Positions 41,862 through 47,945 of a stretch of DNA of 64,000 nt are shown in pieces. The notes beneath the pieces are model-generated. The model was given only the letters and a program-made list of their open reading frames with translations, was not told where the DNA came from and ran no database searches. This DNA comes from Patescibacteria group bacterium (GTDB taxonomy: Bacteria > Patescibacteriota > Microgenomatia > Levybacterales > UBA12049): assembly GCA_035946335.1 (NCBI GenBank), contig DASYZL010000006.1:106594-170593 (forward strand), read 5' to 3'. The translations under genes and the position numbers were made by a program. Each line of letters opens with the position of its first letter. Within the stretch, counting starts at the first letter, position 1.

Positions 41862-42560
41862 ATGAAAAAAATATTTTTACTTCACGGTTGGACATATTCT
41901 CTGGAAAAATGGCAGAATTGTATATCGCGATTACAAAAGGCAGGATATGACATTATTGCGCTACGCGTTCCTGGACTTACGACCACAATTGACAAAGCAT
42001 GGGAACTCAATGATTATGTTTCCTGGTTGCATGCTATTCTAGCAAAAGAAAAAGGAAAACCAATCCTTATCGCACACTCCAATGGCGGACGTATTGCTAT
42101 TGCATTTGCGGCACAATATCCCCATATGGTAGAAAAGCTTATTTTAATTGACAGCGCAGGTATTTATCATAAGGAAATTCCAATTCTGATAAAACGATTT
42201 GTCTTTAGTAAGCTTGCCCGTGCAGGAAAGCTACTTACCTCTTCCAAAGAAATACAGCACATATTCTATAAACTTGTCGGAGAACATGATTATCTAAACG
42301 CCCCATCATTGTCTGTACGCCAAACTCTACGTAACCTAATTGCAATTGACTGCACACCATATCTGACCCGGCTGAGAATACCAACACTTATCATTTGGGG
42401 AGAAAAAGATACTATTACGCCACTTCGTGATGGGGAACTTATGAAAAGTTTGATACAACAGTCTAAACTTGTTATCGTGAAGAACTCACGACACGCTCCG
42501 TACCATACACATACACAAGAAGTTGTTGATGTGATTGTGAAAGAACTGCAGCATATATGA
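41862..42560 (+). CDS. Alpha/beta-fold hydrolase (esterase/lipase-like)
   Basis: 232 aa; nucleophile elbow in IAHSNGGRIA; Asp/His downstream. Confidence 0.65.
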   Translation: MKKIFLLHGWTYSLEKWQNCISRLQKAGYDIIALRVPGLTTTIDKAWELNDYVSWLHAILAKEKGKPILIAHSNGGRIAIAFAAQYPHMVEKLILIDSAGIYHKEIPILIKRFVFSKLARAGKLLTSSKEIQHIFYKLVGEHDYLNAPSLSVRQTLRNLIAIDCTPYLTRLRIPTLIIWGEKDTITPLRDGELMKSLIQQSKLVIVKNSRHAPYHTHTQEVVDVIVKELQHI

Positions 42561-43732
42561 GTATTTTTAACTCGCTCGGATCAAATTATGATTTTCGTTC
42601 TGCATTACAAACGCTTTTTCAAAGAAAAGATTTTTCTGCAAAACTCACTACACTTCTTGAGAAAGAATACAACGGGAAAGCTGTACTCGTCTACAAAGGG
42701 AGAGAAGCGATACTCCTATCACTGCAATTACTACAGATGCCAAAGGGTACACAGGTTGCAATCAATGGTTTTACCTGTTTCGCAGTATATAACGCTGTGA
42801 CAAACGCCGGTTATTCACCGGTTCTGTTGGATATTGAAAAAACATTGTTGCATTTTTCTGCTGAGATACTGGAAAAAGCAATAAAACAATTCCCGTCTCT
42901 CAAAGTAGTTATCATCCAAAATACACTCGGGATTGCATGTGACATAGAAAAAATTGCTGCGGTTTGCACAAAACATAACCTTATCCTCATAGAGGATCTA
43001 GCACATAGTGTCGGACTATACTATGCAAACAGGAAAGAAGCGGGGACAATTGGCGATTTTGTTACCCTGTCATTTAGTCAGGATAAAATGATTGACGCAG
43101 TTTCGGGAGGAGCCTTGGTTATCAGGAATAAAACATACCATACGCTTCCACATGTTCCTTTTAAGAAAGTGCCGAGTTCTCAACAGTTGAAGGACAGATG
43201 GTATCCGTTCCTAACCTATTGCATAAGAAAAAGTTATGATCTGCGCATTGGAAAACTCTTACACAGCTTCTTGAGACAGCTTTCTGTACTCTCACAACCG
43301 GTTGGTAACCCGACAGATACTATCCATGCGCTCCCTCGGTGGTACTGCAAACCTATTTATCACGGTTTTCAAAGCCTTGCCCAAAACATCAATCACCGAA
43401 AGGCGGTTGCAGGAGTATATGAGCAAATTGACAAAAAAAGTATCGGAAAGAGAGAAATAAAAAGTATTTTTTTGAGATTTCCCTTTTTTGTTGATAACCG
43501 TTCTTCACTTATTTCATATCTCAAAAAACATCATGTTTACATTGCTGACATTTGGTATGACAGTCCGATTAGTCCAAAACAATACATACAATATACAAAC
43601 TATCATGGTGAATGTCCGAATGCAGAAAACATTGCAAAAACGATCATCAACTTGCCAACACACCGGAATGTAAACGCAAGAGATGCACGTGTGATTACAG
43701 AAAGGATTACCACATGGCTACAGTCAGCATAA
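42557..43732 (+). CDS. DegT/DnrJ/EryC1/StrS-family PLP-dependent aminotransferase (sugar aminotransferase-like)
   Basis: 391 aa; active-site Lys context LSFSQDKMIDAVSGGAL; ATGA overlap with the hydrolase gene. Confidence 0.7.
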   Translation: MSIFNSLGSNYDFRSALQTLFQRKDFSAKLTTLLEKEYNGKAVLVYKGREAILLSLQLLQMPKGTQVAINGFTCFAVYNAVTNAGYSPVLLDIEKTLLHFSAEILEKAIKQFPSLKVVIIQNTLGIACDIEKIAAVCTKHNLILIEDLAHSVGLYYANRKEAGTIGDFVTLSFSQDKMIDAVSGGALVIRNKTYHTLPHVPFKKVPSSQQLKDRWYPFLTYCIRKSYDLRIGKLLHSFLRQLSVLSQPVGNPTDTIHALPRWYCKPIYHGFQSLAQNINHRKAVAGVYEQIDKKSIGKREIKSIFLRFPFFVDNRSSLISYLKKHHVYIADIWYDSPISPKQYIQYTNYHGECPNAENIAKTIINLPTHRNVNARDARVITERITTWLQSA

Positions 43733-44739
43733 AAGGAGTTACCGATAAAAATGTCTGGGAACAGTTTGTTGCTCACTATGAGGGCGCAAATTTTTTGCAA
43801 TCGTGGTACTGGGGAGATTTCCACACAGCACTGAATAAAAAGATTGCCAGGACAGGCTTTTACAAAGGTGGAACGCTAACTGGAGTCATGTTAAGTGTTG
43901 TCGAGAAAGCAAAACGCGCAACGTATCTGACTGTTCCCGCAGGACCATTGATTGATTGGAATGACAAAAAGACCATTGAGAAATTTGTTGCGGAAATAAA
44001 GCGGATTGCGGGAAGAGAAAAATGTTCTTTTGTCAGGGTACGTCCACAATTATTATTAGACGATTTCTCAAAAAACCTTTTTTCTGGACTTGGATTCCGT
44101 CCTTCACCTATACACCTTACCGCAGAATTAACATCTCAATTAACTCTTTCACCTTCAGAAGAAACTCTTCTTGCAAACATGCGAAAAGGAACACGGTATG
44201 AAATTAACAAAGCAAAGAAAATTGGCATACATATTCAGACAACAAACGAACCGTCTGCGATACAAGGATTCTACGAACTGCAATTACAAACAGCAAAGCG
44301 GCAGAACTTTGTTCCATTCTCATATGCCTTTTTACATGAACAGTTTACTATATTTGCGGAAGCGAAAAAAGCCTTATTATATAGTGCATACATGGAAAAA
44401 GATCTCTTAGCCCAGGCATTTATTATTTTTTATGGCGAAGAAGCGGCATATCATTATGGTGCAAGCACTGATTTGGGGAGAAAATATCCTGGCGTATATC
44501 TCATCCAATGGGAAGCAATAAAAGAAGCGAAAAAACGCGGGTTGAAACGATATAATTTCTGGGGTGTTGCGCCGGAAAAAGAGATAAACCACCGCTTTGC
44601 AGGAGTTTCACTATTTAAAAGGGGTTTTGGGGGCAGTGACATTGAATATTTACATGCACAGGATTTTATTATTAATGCTCCAAAGTATGCGGTAAATTAT
44701 ATTATTGAAAAATGGCGCAAGCACTACCGAAGAGTATAA
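43714..44739 (+). CDS. FemAB-family aminoacyl-tRNA-dependent peptidoglycan branch-peptide transferase
   Basis: Start trimmed to MATVSIKGV...; FemAB/FemX fold (tandem GNAT-like halves, ...LFKRGFGG... C-terminal motif). Its stop lies 2 nt from the stop of the convergent rpsJ. Confidence 0.7.
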   Translation: MATVSIKGVTDKNVWEQFVAHYEGANFLQSWYWGDFHTALNKKIARTGFYKGGTLTGVMLSVVEKAKRATYLTVPAGPLIDWNDKKTIEKFVAEIKRIAGREKCSFVRVRPQLLLDDFSKNLFSGLGFRPSPIHLTAELTSQLTLSPSEETLLANMRKGTRYEINKAKKIGIHIQTTNEPSAIQGFYELQLQTAKRQNFVPFSYAFLHEQFTIFAEAKKALLYSAYMEKDLLAQAFIIFYGEEAAYHYGASTDLGRKYPGVYLIQWEAIKEAKKRGLKRYNFWGVAPEKEINHRFAGVSLFKRGFGGSDIEYLHAQDFIINAPKYAVNYIIEKWRKHYRRV

Positions 44740-44741
44740 CC

Positions 44742-45050
44742 TCACATCTTTATTTCAATATCTACGCCGGCAGGAAGCTCTAAATGACCAAGACTATCCA
44801 TTGTTTTTTCTGTTGGAGAAACGATGTCAATAAGTCTTTTGTGGACACGGATTTCAAAATGGTCACGGGCATTTTTATAAATGAATGGAGAAGCCTGCAC
44901 TGCATAAACCGTTCGGTCGGTCGGAAGTGGTACTGGTCCGACAACTTTTGCACCAGTCCGGATTGCAGTATCCAGAATCTGCTGACAACACGCGTCAATA
45001 ACGCGTGCATCATATGCTTTGAGTCGTACTCGTATTCTTCCTTTTGGCAT
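44742..45050 (-). CDS. rpsJ: 30S ribosomal protein S10
   Basis: 102 aa; ...[38 protein letters not shown]... and ...[31 protein letters not shown] match S10 over its whole length. Confidence 0.9.
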   Translation of the reverse strand: [102 protein letters not shown]

Positions 45051-45124
45051 AGGCTTTCAAAGAACAAATTTCTTCGTGGTGTGATTATACAATAGAAAGA
45101 AATGCTTGTCCAGCAAAACTTTTC

Positions 45125-45177
45125 TTGACAGATCCTGCTTTTTCTGACTATTATCAAAGAGGGGACAAAAAGGAGGT
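45125..45177 (+). promoter_or_regulatory. Sigma70-like promoter TTGACA-18-TATTAT plus strong SD AAAAAGGAGGTGA for the Met-rich protein/msrA pair
   Basis: -35 at 45125-45130, -10 at 45149-45154, SD at 45169-45177, ATG at 45184. Confidence 0.45.
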
Positions 45178-45183
45178 GAACGT

Positions 45184-45582
45184 ATGGCACGAAAAACAGT
45201 CGCAACAATAACACGAAAAACGATGATCATTGTCACTGTTATTACACTTTTTGTTGGTGCACTTTTTGGGTATGAAATCGGAAAAGCAAAATATATTGCA
45301 AAAATGGCCTTGGTACAAGGAGGACTCATGCAGCAACTGGAAGATGTAAAATTACAAGTTCAGGCTGTCAGAATGCAAAGCGGATTTATCATGAAGGGCA
45401 ACAGTATGTATGTTATTAATGCCGGACAAATGATGCTTATGGATAAGAATATGACCCTAAAAGATGGGACAGAAGTAACAACAACAGGGCAAGTAATGAT
45501 GAAAGACGGCACGACACTATTGATGCAAAATGATCAGGCTCTTACAGCAGACGATAAACTGATAAACGTATCGATGGACTAA
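45184..45582 (+). CDS. Methionine-rich membrane-anchored protein (about 12% Met) of unknown function
   Basis: 132 aa; N-terminal TM helix, then a soluble region containing MM/MxM clusters (GQMMLMDKNM, TGQVMMKDGTTLLMQ). Confidence 0.55.
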   Translation: MARKTVATITRKTMIIVTVITLFVGALFGYEIGKAKYIAKMALVQGGLMQQLEDVKLQVQAVRMQSGFIMKGNSMYVINAGQMMLMDKNMTLKDGTEVTTTGQVMMKDGTTLLMQNDQALTADDKLINVSMD

Positions 45583-45588
45583 CTTTTT

Positions 45589-46137
45589 ATGGCGGAAGAA
45601 ATAGCAACGCTTGCAGGTGGCTGTTTTTGGTGTACTGAGGCAATCTTTAAACGGCTTAAAGGAATCATATCAGTGATCCCTGGATATGCAGGGGGAACGA
45701 AAGAGAATCCTTCTTATGATGAAGTTTCTTCAGGGAAAACAGGATATGCTGAGGCAACTCAATTACATTTTGACCCATCGATTATCCCCTATGAAAAAAT
45801 ATTAGACGTATTTTGGCACACACACAATCCAACAACGCTTAATCAGCAAGGCAATGATATTGGTACCCAGTACCGATCTGTTATTTTTTTCCATAATAAA
45901 CAGCAGAAAGAGATTGCAGAAAGATCAAAAAAAGGTATTGAAAAGTCAGGATTGTATAAAGACCAGATTGTTACCGACATACTGCCCTTTACCACATTTT
46001 ATTCCGCAGAATCATATCATAAAGACTATTACGATCGAAATCGTGATTACCCCTATTGTACTTACGTCATTGACCCGAAAATTCAAAAACTTATGGAAGA
46101 ATTCGGAAAAGATGTTAAAGATGAGTATAAGTCGTAA
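45589..46137 (+). CDS. msrA: Peptide methionine-S-sulfoxide reductase MsrA
   Basis: 182 aa; catalytic GCFWC motif and the conserved MsrA core. Confidence 0.9.
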   Translation: MAEEIATLAGGCFWCTEAIFKRLKGIISVIPGYAGGTKENPSYDEVSSGKTGYAEATQLHFDPSIIPYEKILDVFWHTHNPTTLNQQGNDIGTQYRSVIFFHNKQQKEIAERSKKGIEKSGLYKDQIVTDILPFTTFYSAESYHKDYYDRNRDYPYCTYVIDPKIQKLMEEFGKDVKDEYKS

Positions 46138-46197
46138 AGTATTTTTTTCTTCAAACTATTCTACGAATTAGTTGATGCGTTTTTCCTTTTTACAACT

Positions 46198-46680
46198 TTA
46201 TTCTATTGCTTTTACCAGAGTCAAGTCATAATCAAGAAATCCTAAAGTATGATATAGCGCAATAGCTTTTGAGTTGGCATAGTAAGCAGAAACTCCGATA
46301 CGGTTACATGTTTCTTTTCTGAATGTTGCTATCAATGCACGATACAAAGCATTTCCAACTCCTTTTCTCCTTTGTTCTTTAAGGACAAACCAATCCTCAA
46401 TAAATCCCTCTTTATCCAAAATTCTGTATGATTTTTCTTTAATATCGCCGCAAATATAACCAACGAGTTTTCCGTCAAGCTCTGCAACAAAAGTAAAATA
46501 TTGGGGATCTTCGATAAATTTTTTAGCAAACTCGGCAAGCGTTTTCTCTTTATCTTTTGATTGTATAAAAGGCATAAGAGTTTTTGGAAAAATTTCTTCT
46601 TGATCATAGTATAAAGCAAATTGTTGTATGAGAAAGAGCAATTGCTGTTTATCTTTCTTTATTGCTTTACGAATTAACAT
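46198..46680 (-). CDS. GNAT-family N-acetyltransferase
   Basis: Start trimmed to MLIRKAIKKDK... (the track started at 46746); acetyl-CoA-binding motif RRKGVGNALYRALI. Confidence 0.7.
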   Translation of the reverse strand: MLIRKAIKKDKQQLLFLIQQFALYYDQEEIFPKTLMPFIQSKDKEKTLAEFAKKFIEDPQYFTFVAELDGKLVGYICGDIKEKSYRILDKEGFIEDWFVLKEQRRKGVGNALYRALIATFRKETCNRIGVSAYYANSKAIALYHTLGFLDYDLTLVKAIE

Positions 46681-46686
46681 AAAACC

Positions 46687-46695
46687 ATTATAGCA
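46687..46695 (-). promoter_or_regulatory. Extended -10 TGCTATAAT 6 nt upstream of the GNAT ATG (leaderless-type)
   Basis: Minus strand ...tgcTATAATggtttt-ATG. Confidence 0.35.
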
Positions 46696-46702
46696 AACGC
46701 AT

Positions 46703-46724
46703 AAAAAAATCCGCATGAAGCGGA
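46703..46724 (-). terminator. Rho-independent terminator downstream of tuf
   Basis: Minus strand UCCGC-uucau-GCGGA followed by UUUUUUU, starting about 25 nt after the tuf stop. Confidence 0.5.
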
Positions 46725-46748
46725 TGAAAAGGTCTGTAAATAACAAAT

Positions 46749-47945
46749 TTACTTAATAATCTTTGTGATAACGCCTGCACCAACTGTTTTACCGCCTTCG
46801 CGGATAGCAAAACGGACGCCTTCTTCAAGAGCAACTGGTACAATCAGTTGGACTGTCATTTTTGTATTATCTCCCGGCATTACCATTTCTGTTCCTGTTG
46901 GAAGAGTTACGCTACCTGTTACATCGGTTGTACGAATGTAAAATTGCGGCCGGTAACCGGTGAAAAACGGTGTATGTCGTCCACCCTCTTCTTTTGCAAG
47001 AATATATACTTCTGCTTCAAATTCTGTGTGTGGCGTAATGGAACCTGGTTTAACAATAACCTGTCCACGCTCAACGTCATCTTTTTCAATGCCACGAAGG
47101 AGCAGTCCAACATTGTCTCCTGCTTGACCTTCATCGAGTTGTTTTCTAAACATTTCAACACCGGTGACAACTGATTGTACTGTGGGACGAATACCGACTA
47201 ACTCAACTGCCTCATTTACCTTAACAATTCCTCGCTCAATTCTTCCGGTAACAACTGTTCCTCGTCCTTTAATAGAAAAGACATCCTCAACTGGCATCAA
47301 GAATGGTTTGTCTGTATCACGAACCGGATCAGGGATGTAGTTATCAACTGCGTCCATAAGGTCAAGAATTTTCTGCTCTGCATCTTTATCGCCTTCGAGC
47401 GCTTTCAAAGAAGAACCACGGATTACCGGCACATCATTTCCTGGATATTGATATTTTGTTAACAGTTCACGAACTTCCATTTCTACCAAATCAAGCAGTT
47501 CCGGATCTTGCACCATGTCACATTTATTCATGTAGACAACAATTGCTGGTACACCAACTTGCCGAGCGAGAAGAATGTGTTCGCGAGTTTGCGGCATTGG
47601 ACCGTCTGGCGCTGAAACAACAAGAATTGCTCCATCCATTTGTGCTGCACCAGTAATCATGTTTTTAATGTAATCAGCGTGGCCAGGAGCATCAATATGG
47701 GCATAATGTCGTTTTGCTGTTTCGTATTCGATGTGGGTAATGTTGATCGTAACGCCTCGGGCTCTTTCTTCCGGGGCATTATCAATGTCTTCGTATTTTT
47801 TCGCTTCTGCTTTTGTTCCCTTTTCTGAAGCATATTTTGCCAAAACAGTTGCAATTGCTGCAGTGGTAGTTGTTTTTCCGTGATCAACGTGACCAATCGT
47901 TCCAATATTAACGTGGGGTTTGTTTCGTACGTATTTATCTGCCAT
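46749..47945 (-). CDS. tuf: Elongation factor Tu
   Basis: 398 aa; [14 protein letters not shown] and NKCD GTPase motifs. Confidence 0.95.

What the first reader, a model, noticed from the sequence alone, without database searches (positions are those of the whole stretch)
45125..46137. Methionine-rich membrane protein encoded immediately upstream of msrA under a strong promoter and SD
The 132-aa protein is about 12% Met, clustered as MM/MxM, and is membrane-anchored. It is co-oriented with msrA 6 nt downstream, behind a near-consensus TTGACA-18-TATTAT promoter and an AAGGAGGTGA SD. Met-rich proteins paired with methionine sulfoxide reductases can act as sacrificial oxidant sinks, as described for MrpX with MsrPQ in Azospirillum. 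Such a pair in a minimal CPR genome would be a dedicated oxidative-stress buffering module.
Basis: inference. Interest (0 to 1): 0.5.

Follow-up and report, generated by a model that had tools for sequence, protein, structure and literature searches.

The report
Met-rich DUF6799 protein beside MsrA
A small membrane-anchored protein packed with methionines shares an operon with a methionine-sulfoxide repair enzyme, and because its relatives in many phyla sit beside three different kinds of such repair systems, it is probably a sacrificial oxidant sponge: a new, folded version of a known trick.

Summary
ORF 45184-45582 encodes a 132-aa protein with 15 Met (11.4%; window mean 2.5%). It has an N-terminal hydrophobic helix, a strong SD and an 11/12 sigma-70-like promoter. 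msrA starts 6 nt after its stop.

The protein is a single-domain member of Pfam DUF6799 (E 1e-13), a folded beta domain with no solved homologue and no paper in the searched library. Met-richness is a family trait (median 11% of whole proteins, 19% of domains) but not universal.

Across 98 robust DUF6799 loci from GTDB genomes, 22 lie beside a MetO-reductase or envelope thiol-redox system:
- 6 beside MsrA/MsrB, which are signal-peptide-bearing in diderms.
- 13 beside a cytochrome b plus MsrP-like molybdoenzyme pair.
- 5 beside Trx fusions with DsbD.

None of 19 control loci has such a neighbour. CPR relatives show DUF6799-DUF2000-MsrB or DUF6799-Trx-DsbD.

So the MrpX-like "Met sink" reading is well supported for the family. 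In this window three caveats apply:
- The domain most likely faces outward, while MsrA has no export signal.
- The three closest MsrA relatives examined lack a DUF6799 neighbour.
- MrpX comes from Azospira, not Azospirillum.

Verdict: partly supported; a new variant of a known kind; moderate interest.

The parts
45125..45154 (+). Sigma-70-like promoter: -35 TTGACA (45125-45130), 18-nt spacer, -10 TATTAT (45149-45154)
   Evidence: 11/12 match. It is the only match of at least 11/12 on the + strand of the window. It lies back to back with an 11/12 promoter on the - strand (45112-45084) upstream of rpsJ.
45170..45179 (+). Shine-Dalgarno AAGGAGGTGA, 4 nt before the ATG
   Evidence: Read directly from the sequence.
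45184..45582 (+). CDS of the 132-aa Met-rich DUF6799 protein (no Cys, His, Trp or Pro)
   Evidence: ORF. Composition. PF20606 E 9.7e-14, 51.3 bits against a cutoff of 26.8. Identical NCBI protein named 'DUF6799 domain-containing protein'.
45223..45279 (+). N-terminal hydrophobic segment (aa 14-32), a predicted signal-anchor, followed by the basic juxtamembrane stretch GKAKYIAK
   Evidence: Kyte-Doolittle mean 2.13 over 19 aa. AF2 helix over residues 11-63. The architecture is shared by about 25 homologues (alignment A1).
45382..45552 (+). DUF6799 domain (aa 67-123): a small beta domain holding 9 of the 15 Met
45583..45588 (+). 6-nt intergenic gap (CTTTTT); the msrA ATG is in the same reading frame as the DUF6799 CDS
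   Evidence: Read from the sequence; 45589-45184 = 405 = 3 x 135. No terminator-like site lies in the gap between the genes.
45589..46137 (+). msrA CDS (182 aa), peptide-methionine (S)-S-oxide reductase, with no signal peptide or TM segment
   Evidence: PF01625 E 1.3e-63. TIGR00401 194 bits against a cutoff of 108. Homologues at 76-81% identity also start directly at the catalytic motif.
45619..45633 (+). Catalytic GCFWC motif of MsrA (aa 11-15)
   Evidence: Translation. The motif is conserved in all close homologues listed.

Best explanation
A two-gene methionine-oxidation defence operon.

Gene 1 encodes a membrane-tethered, single-domain DUF6799 protein. An N-terminal signal-anchor and a helical stalk hold a small folded beta domain, most likely on the outer face of the membrane. 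In that domain many hydrophobic positions are occupied by Met. These thioethers react with oxidants (HOCl, chloramines, H2O2) before the oxidants reach essential envelope targets. This makes the protein a surface 'Met shield', functionally analogous to the periplasmic scavenger MrpX.

Gene 2 is a cytoplasmic MsrA, made from the same transcript. It reduces Met-S-sulfoxide inside the cell.

In this organism the two are coupled mainly by co-expression, as an outer sink plus inner repair. MsrA could act on the protein only before export, or on MetO recovered after turnover.

What is shown: gene anatomy, family membership, the predicted fold, and the cross-phylum genomic association of DUF6799 with MetO reductases and the Trx/DsbD pathway.

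What is inferred: operon status, outward topology, oxidant scavenging, and any substrate relation with MsrA.
For: 1. Anatomy. One promoter and SD, a 6-nt gap, and no terminator-like site in the gap between the genes.
2. Family. PF20606. There are 190 HMMER hits among 1.84e9 representatives, with a median of 11.4% Met.
3. Neighbours of 98 robust DUF6799 loci:
   - MsrA/MsrB in 6, within 750 bp in 5 of them.
   - Cytochrome b (PF01292) plus Oxidored_molyb in 13. The molybdoenzyme's best NCBIfam hit is MsrP and its best PDB hit is YedY (1XDQ).
   - Trx fusions with DsbD in 5.
   - The union is 22 loci, against 0 of 19 control loci.
   - SelR is the joint-top Pfam family among upstream neighbours, and cytochrome b is the top family among downstream neighbours.
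4. Matching compartments in diderms. The adjacent MsrA/MsrB carry signal peptides or lipoboxes, and the DUF6799 partners are secreted with 21-27% Met.
5. Met content. Msr-linked domains are richer in Met (median 31% against 19%, Mann-Whitney p = 0.003).
6. CPR-type relatives with the same TM plus 'AR.KYK' architecture:
   - DUF6799-DUF2000-MsrB.
   - DUF6799, then TM-anchored Trx, then a DipZ-like DsbD-redoxin.
   - DUF6799-Trx fusions.
7. Precedents. MrpX/YedYZ. Natural Met-rich proteins are MsrA/B substrates in vitro. Cytoplasmic MsrAB controls the Met(O) content of exoproteins in B. cereus.
Against: - Compartment mismatch. The window MsrA, like the MsrB of the CPR relatives, has no export signal. 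The family is otherwise secreted. Direct recycling is therefore topologically problematic.
- Topology from charges is ambiguous. K+R averages 2.4 in the N-flank and 3.2 in the C-flank.
- The adjacency is unique to this lineage. No close homologue of the protein exists in the databases. The three closest MsrA homologues examined lack a DUF6799 neighbour.
- 78% of DUF6799 loci have no such partner, and about 13% of domains have less than 6% Met.
- The window domain (15.9% Met) is below the family median of 19%.
- Loci from related species are not independent, so the binomial P values overstate significance.
- There is no experimental evidence for oxidation, reduction or expression.
Confidence: 0.55

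Rival explanations
1. Direct sink-and-recycle pair inside the cell. In the CPR subfamily the short N-terminus is translocated (N-out/C-in). The Met-rich domain then faces the cytoplasm at the membrane surface, and the cytoplasmic MsrA (or MsrB in relatives) reduces it directly.
For: - The conserved basic motif 'AR.KYK' lies directly C-terminal of the TM. Many members have only 'MKN' before the TM, so the positive-inside rule slightly favours C-in (K+R 3.2 against 2.4).
- The Msr partners in the CPR loci are all signal-less, which would then match the compartment.
- The gene pair is tightly coupled, with a 6-nt gap.
Against: - All non-CPR members carry cleavable signal peptides or lipoboxes.
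- P0033, which carries the motif, lies in a tight operon with a TM-anchored Trx and a DsbD-redoxin. That machinery serves the outer face.
- Fusions of TM-DUF6799-Trx (WCPxC) followed by DsbD occur in CPR and DPANN.
- The window protein itself has 4 K/R before the TM and 3 after it.
Confidence: 0.15
2. No functional coupling in this window. The pair arose by a lineage-specific rearrangement between tuf and rpsJ. The DUF6799 protein has another envelope role, such as a Met-lined hydrophobic binding or chaperone-like surface, or a structural or adhesion stalk. MsrA is general housekeeping.
For: - The closest MsrA homologues sit in a different conserved context (PfkB / holin_4_2 / PMSR / ABC2_membrane) without DUF6799.
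- Saccharimonadales, Levybacteria and one further CPR-type homologue (P0023) have no adjacent msr gene.
- Low-Met members replace Met with V/L/I, so Met occupies ordinary hydrophobic positions of the fold.
- 78% of family loci lack a redox partner.
Against: - Adjacency to three unrelated MetO-reductase types has arisen independently in several gene orders and phyla, at about 20 times a generous background.
- Met content correlates with Msr linkage.
- The 6-nt spacing behind a single strong promoter argues for co-expression.
Confidence: 0.15
3. Metal handling. The Met-rich domain binds Cu(I)/Ag(I) through thioether clusters, as in CusF, CopC/PcoC, PcoE/SilE or the Ctr1 'Mets' motifs. The Msr neighbours merely keep those ligand Met residues reduced.
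For: - MM/MxM clusters are typical of Cu(I) sites (established knowledge).
- The variants next to the cytochrome b and Moco genes also carry conserved His, for example MMHDGKMMMMKAGHP...MDH.
- The E. coli MsrP repairs the Met-rich Cu chaperone CusF, according to the title and abstract of PMC9302797.
- Some neighbouring histidine kinases align end to end with the heavy-metal sensor model, though below its cutoff.
Against: - The window protein has no His or Cys.
- No copper-resistance family appears among the 25 most frequent Pfam families of 182 immediate neighbours; there is a single E1-E2 ATPase.
- No cop or cus genes lie next to the window pair.
Confidence: 0.1
4. Methionine or sulfur reserve. 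The protein is a Met store for an auxotrophic, reduced-genome organism, and MsrA salvages oxidised Met released from it.
For: - In Levybacteria the homologue lies divergently next to ATP sulfurylase/APS kinase and PAPS reductase.
- Met-rich seed storage proteins exist, for example the zein DZS18 listed.
Against: - A membrane-anchored, probably external, small domain is a poor store.
- The association with extracytoplasmic Trx/DsbD and periplasmic reductases is not explained.
- Only a single context supports the idea.
Confidence: 0.05

Closest known systems
MrpX with YedY1Z1 (MsrPQ) of Azospira suillum PS (Melnyk et al. 2015, PMC4436054)
   Same: A small Cys-poor, Met-rich protein is encoded in one transcription unit with a MetO reductase, and the proposed role is a sacrificial oxidant sink. 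In 13 of 98 DUF6799 loci the family even sits beside a membrane cytochrome b and a YedY/MsrP-like molybdoenzyme; in 11 of these it lies directly upstream and co-oriented.
   Different: - MrpX is soluble and periplasmic, with 20% Met and 44% charged residues. It is described as natively unfolded and poorly conserved.
- The window protein is membrane-anchored, 11% Met and 19% charged, and has a conserved, confidently folded beta domain.
- Its partner here is a thiol-dependent cytoplasmic MsrA rather than a periplasmic Mo enzyme, so the compartments probably do not match.
- No SigF/NrsF regulator is present.
- Homology to MrpX was not tested, because no MrpX sequence was available.
Pfam PF20606 (DUF6799), an uncharacterised domain family
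   Same: The protein is a member (51.3 bits against a cutoff of 26.8). It shares the beta-hairpin 'xDGxxx' repeat pattern, the Met-rich composition and extracytoplasmic targeting with the family.
   Different: - Most members are secreted or lipoproteins of Bacteroidota, Verrucomicrobiota, Binatia and others, often with 1-8 tandem domains.
- The window protein belongs to a CPR-type subfamily with an uncleaved TM anchor, an 'AR.KYK' motif, a helical stalk and a single domain.
- No paper in the searched library mentions the family.
Extracytoplasmic CcdA/DsbD-thioredoxin-MsrAB systems of monoderms and Neisseria (for example S. pneumoniae CcdA-Etrx-MsrAB2; from my own knowledge, not checked here)
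   Same: CPR and DPANN relatives encode DUF6799 fused to, or followed by, a TM-anchored CxxC thioredoxin and a DsbD_TM-redoxin (DipZ-like) protein. This is the electron route that feeds surface Msr enzymes.
   Different: No exported Msr was seen in those loci. The 64-kb window contains no DsbD, Trx or MsrB, and its MsrA is signal-less.
Exoprotein Met residues recycled by cytoplasmic MsrAB in Bacillus cereus (PMC5526929)
   Same: This is a monoderm-type cell in which a cytoplasmic Msr determines the Met(O) load of exported proteins, which are proposed to act as ROS traps. It is a precedent for a cytoplasmic reductase coupled with exported Met-bearing proteins.
   Different: In B. cereus the substrates are ordinary exoproteins and toxins, not a dedicated Met-rich domain, and there is no operon linkage.
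Natural bacterial Met-rich, Cys-free proteins MRP4-6 (Liang et al. 2012, PMC3514235)
   Same: [quoted passage not shown] They are readily oxidised by HOCl or H2O2 and reduced by MsrA plus MsrB in vitro.
   Different: They were chosen as assay tools and no physiological role was assigned.

Membership tests
Pfam PF20606 DUF6799 | Match to the family HMM above the gathering score | tested here: met
   E 9.7e-14, 51.3 bits against a cutoff of 26.8, covering aa 67-123 and profile positions 3-60 of 63. NCBI names the identical protein 'DUF6799 domain-containing protein'.
Pfam PF20606 DUF6799 | N-terminal export or anchoring signal preceding the domain | tested here: met
   Hydrophobic helix at aa 14-32. 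Other members carry signal peptides or lipoboxes, judged by inspection. No dedicated signal-peptide predictor was available.
MrpX-type sacrificial Met-rich scavenger (Melnyk 2015) | Small protein with very high Met content (about 20%) and few or no Cys | tested here: inconclusive
   11.4% Met overall, 15.9% in the domain, and 0 Cys. This is far above the window background but below MrpX and below the family's domain median of 19%.
MrpX-type sacrificial Met-rich scavenger (Melnyk 2015) | Highly charged and natively unfolded | tested here: not met
   K+R+D+E = 25/132 = 19%, against 44% in MrpX. The AF2 domain model has pLDDT 87-95 with 7 strands.
MrpX-type sacrificial Met-rich scavenger (Melnyk 2015) | Co-transcribed with a methionine sulfoxide reductase | tested here: met
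   msrA lies 6 nt downstream on the same strand, behind a single upstream promoter-like site, with no terminator-like site in the gap. Operon status is inferred, not measured.
MrpX-type sacrificial Met-rich scavenger (Melnyk 2015) | Scavenger and reductase reside in the same compartment | tested here: inconclusive
   MsrA has no signal peptide. The domain is probably outside, by homology and by the Trx/DsbD fusions. The charge rule is ambiguous. The feature is met in the diderm DUF6799 loci.
MrpX-type sacrificial Met-rich scavenger (Melnyk 2015) | Rapid oxidation by HOCl and re-reduction in vivo; induction by oxidant through a dedicated regulator | not testable with these tools
   This needs biochemistry and transcriptomics. 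No SigF/NrsF-like genes flank the pair.
MsrA (PF01625 / TIGR00401) | HMM match above the cutoff and the catalytic GCFWC motif | tested here: met
   PF01625 214 bits. TIGR00401 194 bits against a cutoff of 108. The motif is at aa 11-15.
Met/His-rich periplasmic Cu(I)/Ag(I) binders (CusF, CopC/PcoC, PcoE/SilE) | His/Met (or Trp) ligand motifs and linkage to cop, cus, pco or sil genes | tested here: not met
Extracytoplasmic DsbD/CcdA-Trx-Msr pathway | Membrane electron transporter plus exported CxxC thioredoxin plus exported Msr in the locus | tested here: not met
   None of these is present in the 64-kb window. DsbD and Trx are present next to CPR and DPANN homologues, but no exported Msr is.

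The most novel reading that the evidence does not exclude
DUF6799 is a pan-phylum, folded 'methionine shield' domain of the cell envelope. It is a structured counterpart of MrpX, kept reduced by three non-homologous systems:
- exported MsrA/MsrB;
- an uncharacterised cytochrome-b plus MsrP-like molybdoenzyme pair, in effect a second kind of MsrPQ;
- the DsbD-thioredoxin route.

In ultra-small CPR bacteria and DPANN archaea it is membrane-tethered, and its Trx-fused form is shared across the two domains of life at 44-51% identity. The window would then show the minimal form of this defence, a surface shield plus a cytoplasmic MsrA, in a reduced genome.
Probability: 0.4. Interest if true: 0.7.

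Novelty: new variant of a known kind. Interest (0 to 1): 0.5.

Why it matters
The idea that methionines act as recyclable antioxidants rests on very few dedicated examples; among those seen here, MrpX is the clearest bacterial one. If the reading is right, a widespread domain of unknown function gains a testable role. The family has 190 representative clusters, spanning Bacteroidota, Verrucomicrobiota, Binatia, Acidobacteriota, CPR and DPANN.

It would also flag an uncharacterised partner, the cytochrome b plus MsrP-like molybdoenzyme pair, as a candidate periplasmic MetO reductase.

For CPR organisms it points to an envelope-level oxidative defence in cells generally thought to have few antioxidant enzymes (my own knowledge, not checked here). 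The practical payoff is modest. It gives a clear biochemical experiment and a gene-neighbourhood rule for annotation, rather than a new principle.

Tried and rejected
- The word-indexed homologue search with the protein found only itself. The exact protein is not on record in the contig index.
I replaced it with a back-translated, Met-free domain pattern scan of genome contigs.
- I looked for DUF6799-MsrA/B fusions because the window stop codon is in frame with msrA. There are none among 175 family proteins.
- Longer MsrA homologues (203-242 aa) look like mis-called starts, not anchored enzymes.
- I looked for the pair from the MsrA side. The three closest homologues examined have no DUF6799 neighbour.
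- Charge-based topology prediction is ambiguous.
- Typing the histidine kinases next to Chitinophagaceae DUF6799 genes, to separate copper from oxidant sensing, was uninformative because the matches were generic.
- Base composition gives no sign that the pair is a recent foreign insertion. Its GC is 0.385-0.40, against 0.406 for the window.
- Literature searches found no paper for 'DUF6799' and nothing relevant linking Patescibacteria with Msr.
Full report
**Observation**

The ORF at 45184-45582 (+) encodes 132 aa. It contains 15 Met (11.4%), with MM at residues 83-84 and 105-106 and MLM at 84-86. It has no Cys, His, Trp or Pro.

Among 71 ORFs of at least 120 aa in the window, it is the extreme outlier for Met content. 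The mean is 2.5% and the next highest is 6.2%. At the background frequency, 15 or more Met in 132 residues has P = 1.3e-6.

Other features also check out:
- A 19-residue hydrophobic segment covers aa 14-32.
- The AAGGAGGTGA Shine-Dalgarno lies at 45170-45179.
- The TTGACA-18-TATTAT promoter-like site lies at 45125-45154. It is the only match of at least 11/12 on the + strand of the 64-kb window. Both strands together hold 6 such matches, against 2.5 +/- 1.6 in shuffles.
- msrA (45589-46137) starts 6 nt after the stop codon. It is a bona fide MsrA: PF01625 E 1e-63, TIGR00401 above its cutoff, and a GCFWC motif.
- NCBI assigns the identical proteins to a Patescibacteria-group MAG.

**What the protein is**

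It matches Pfam PF20606 (DUF6799) at aa 67-123, with 51.3 bits against a cutoff of 26.8. It matches no NCBIfam model.

A full HMMER scan of 1.84 billion representative proteins gave 190 hits at E <= 1e-3, all through this domain. Nothing except the protein itself exceeded 45% identity.

About 25 hits share the whole architecture (alignment A1):
- a TM segment;
- a basic 'GY..AR.KYK' juxtamembrane motif;
- a helical linker;
- a single domain, in proteins of 122-147 aa.

Members that carry names come from Saccharimonadales and Levybacteria.

**Is Met-richness a family trait?**

Over the 150 best hits, the Met fraction has a median of 11.4% and a range of 1.4-35%. Within domain envelopes from an independent genome sample, the median is 19%. 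In subfamily A1, M75 and M86 are nearly invariant.

About 13% of domains have less than 6% Met. In those, V, L or I stand where Met stands elsewhere. Met therefore occupies ordinary hydrophobic positions of the fold, and the fold does not need it. The enrichment is a widespread but optional elaboration. That is what one expects of a selected chemical property rather than a structural requirement.

**Genomic association**

I scanned GTDB species genomes with a back-translated domain pattern that contains no Met codon: [DN]GTx[VIM]x3Gx[VIM]xxK[DN]G. An HMM built from A1 confirmed a DUF6799 ORF at E <= 1e-10 in 98 of them.

| Neighbour type | Loci of 98 | Loci |
|---|---|---|
| MsrA and/or MsrB | 6 | L020, L034, L053, L102, L104 within 750 bp; L117 at 3 kb |
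| Cytochrome b (PF01292) plus Oxidored_molyb (PF00174) pair | 13 | 11 of them directly downstream and co-oriented |
| DUF6799 fused to a CxxC thioredoxin-like domain, usually followed by DsbD_TM proteins | 5 | L045, L091, L114, L118, L122 |
| Union | 22 (22%) | |
| Control loci that matched the pattern but lack the domain | 0 of 19 | |

Further details:
- The molybdoenzyme's best NCBIfam match is MsrP (E 2e-29, below the equivalog cutoff). Its best solved relative is E. coli YedY, 1XDQ.
- An unbiased Pfam census of immediate neighbours put SelR joint top among upstream genes (with histidine-kinase domains), and cytochrome b at the top among downstream genes. Copper-resistance families were absent from the top 25.
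- With a generous background of 1.2% per block, 17 or more reductase-linked loci of 101 has P of about 7e-15. This overstates significance, because related species share arrangements.
- The gene orders differ. The taxa span Bacteroidota, Verrucomicrobiota (Chthoniobacterales), Binatia, 'delta proteobacterium' MAGs, Acidobacteriota, CPR and DPANN.
- In the diderm cases the adjacent MsrA/MsrB carry signal peptides or lipoboxes. The DUF6799 partners there are secreted and 21-27% Met, so the compartments match.
- Msr-linked domains are richer in Met than the rest (median 31% against 19%, p = 0.003).

**CPR-type relatives**

| Context | Homologue or locus |
|---|---|
| DUF6799, then (263-aa ORF), DUF2000, MsrB | P0061, P0152 |
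| HTH_3, small multi-TM protein, DUF6799, TM-anchored Trx (WCPIC), DsbD_TM-redoxin | P0033 |
| TM-DUF6799-Trx fusions followed by DsbD-redoxin | P0155, L118 (Gottesmanbacteria), L114 |
| No adjacent partner | P0027 (Saccharimonadales, MsrA 4 kb away), P0023, P0115 (Levybacteria, next to sulfate-assimilation genes) |

Five of 175 family proteins are Trx fusions, and none is an Msr fusion.

**The weak point for this window: compartment**

The wider family is clearly exported. The CPR fusions and operons with anchored Trx and DsbD place the domain on the outer face. P0033, which carries the same 'AR.KYK' motif as the window protein, sits in such an operon.

The window MsrA begins MAEEIATLAGGCFWC, and its close homologues (76-81% identity) likewise lack any signal. 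The CPR MsrB partners are also signal-less. The charge balance around the TM is ambiguous, with K+R of 2.4 on the N side and 3.2 on the C side. An N-out/C-in orientation therefore cannot be excluded.

The 64-kb window holds no DsbD, Trx, MsrB, DUF2000, cytochrome b-Moco pair or second DUF6799 gene.

The three nearest MsrA homologues examined lie in a different conserved context (PfkB, Phage_holin_4_2, PMSR, ABC2_membrane) without DUF6799. The adjacency here is therefore a lineage-specific arrangement, inserted together with a GNAT gene between tuf and rpsJ. It shows no compositional anomaly.

**Mechanism**

I commit to the following at confidence 0.55. The two genes form one oxidant-defence operon. 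The DUF6799 protein is a membrane-tethered, outward-facing, Met-lined domain that consumes HOCl or peroxide-type oxidants at the cell surface. MsrA, made from the same message, repairs Met-S-sulfoxide in the cytoplasm.

Direct enzymatic recycling of the mature domain by this MsrA is unlikely unless the topology is inverted (rival, 0.15). A B. cereus study shows that a cytoplasmic MsrAB can nonetheless set the Met(O) level of exported proteins. Natural Met-rich proteins are good MsrA/B substrates in vitro.

The other rivals are:
- accidental adjacency with another envelope role (0.15);
- Cu(I)/Ag(I) binding (0.10), which is disfavoured by the lack of His and Cys, the lack of copper genes, and the neighbour census;
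- Met or sulfur storage (0.05).

What is shown: the anatomy, family membership, predicted fold and genomic associations. What is inferred: transcription, topology, oxidation chemistry and substrate relations.

**Comparison with known systems, and novelty**

The logic is the same and, in 13 family loci, so is the gene neighbourhood type.

The differences are:
- a conserved folded domain rather than a disordered peptide;
- membrane tethering in CPR;
- thiol-dependent MsrA/MsrB or Trx/DsbD partners;
- in this window, a probable compartment mismatch.

No paper in the searched library mentions DUF6799. I rate the finding a new variant of a known kind. It is a solid lead for de-orphanising a DUF and a useful annotation rule, but not a new principle. 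For the window itself, the proposed enzyme-substrate relation remains unproven. Interest: 0.5.

Noticed in passing
window 45580-45591: The DUF6799 stop codon TAA is followed by CTT TTT and then the msrA ATG in the same reading frame (45589-45184 = 405). Read-through or a single substitution would therefore give a TM-DUF6799-MsrA fusion, which would place MsrA on the same side as the Met-rich domain. No such fusion exists among 175 family proteins, so this may be chance (1 in 3).
   Followed up: partly
window 44742-47945; L006 3191-11696: tuf (46749-47945, -) and rpsJ (44742-45050, -) are separated by a 1.7-kb insert holding a GNAT gene, msrA and the DUF6799 gene. They are directly adjacent in CPR locus L006. 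In L006 a DUF6799-Trx/DsbD cluster sits in the same neighbourhood, between fusA and tuf.
   Followed up: partly
L098 3370-5162; also L036, L041, L068, L069, L071, L096, L102, L115, L116, L119, L133, L034: Recurrent operon of a secreted DUF6799, a membrane cytochrome b (PF01292) and a Tat/lipobox molybdoenzyme (PF00174). The molybdoenzyme's best matches are MsrP (NCBIfam) and YedY 1XDQ (PDB), but it scores below the MsrP cutoff. This is a possible second kind of MsrPQ-like reductase. In L102 the cluster is MsrB-MsrA-DUF6799-cytochrome b-Moco, all co-oriented.
   Followed up: partly
L002 6469-6888; L005 7333-7752; L118 3226-3660: DUF2000 (PF09391) recurs in CPR between DUF6799 and msrB, and also directly after the DsbD-redoxin gene of a DUF6799-Trx cluster. 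It looks like an unrecognised member of this redox neighbourhood.
   Followed up: no
L010 5378-5981; L006 5370-5923; L118 54-624: An XRE-type HTH_3 regulator and a conserved small multi-TM protein (117-128 aa, no Pfam match) precede the DUF6799-Trx-DsbD clusters in CPR. This may be a membrane-linked regulatory pair.
   Followed up: no
L045 2567-3307; L122 3087-3848; L091 104-1015: DPANN archaea (Woesearchaeota, Nanoarchaeia) encode TM-DUF6799-Trx fusions that are 44-51% identical over full length to those of CPR bacteria (L006, L118) and are again followed by DsbD-type genes. This is compatible with inter-domain transfer among ultra-small groundwater organisms.
   Followed up: partly
L142 3524-6375 (also L143-L145): In Levybacteria the DUF6799 gene lies divergently next to ATP sulfurylase/APS kinase and PAPS reductase (sulfate assimilation), with no msr gene nearby.
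   Followed up: no
window 45084-45154: Two 11/12 sigma-70-like promoters lie back to back 12 nt apart. One faces the DUF6799-msrA pair (45125-45154, +) and one faces rpsJ (45112-45084, -).
   Followed up: partly
L135-L141: The closest homologues of the window MsrA (76-78% identity) share a conserved context: PfkB, Phage_holin_4_2 (-), PMSR (+), ABC2_membrane (-). The window msrA has therefore been relocated relative to these homologues.
   Followed up: partly
window 43612-43732: The listed FemAB-family ORF (43612-44739) overlaps the preceding DegT/DnrJ aminotransferase ORF (42557-43732) by 121 nt. The true FemAB start is probably further downstream.
   Followed up: no
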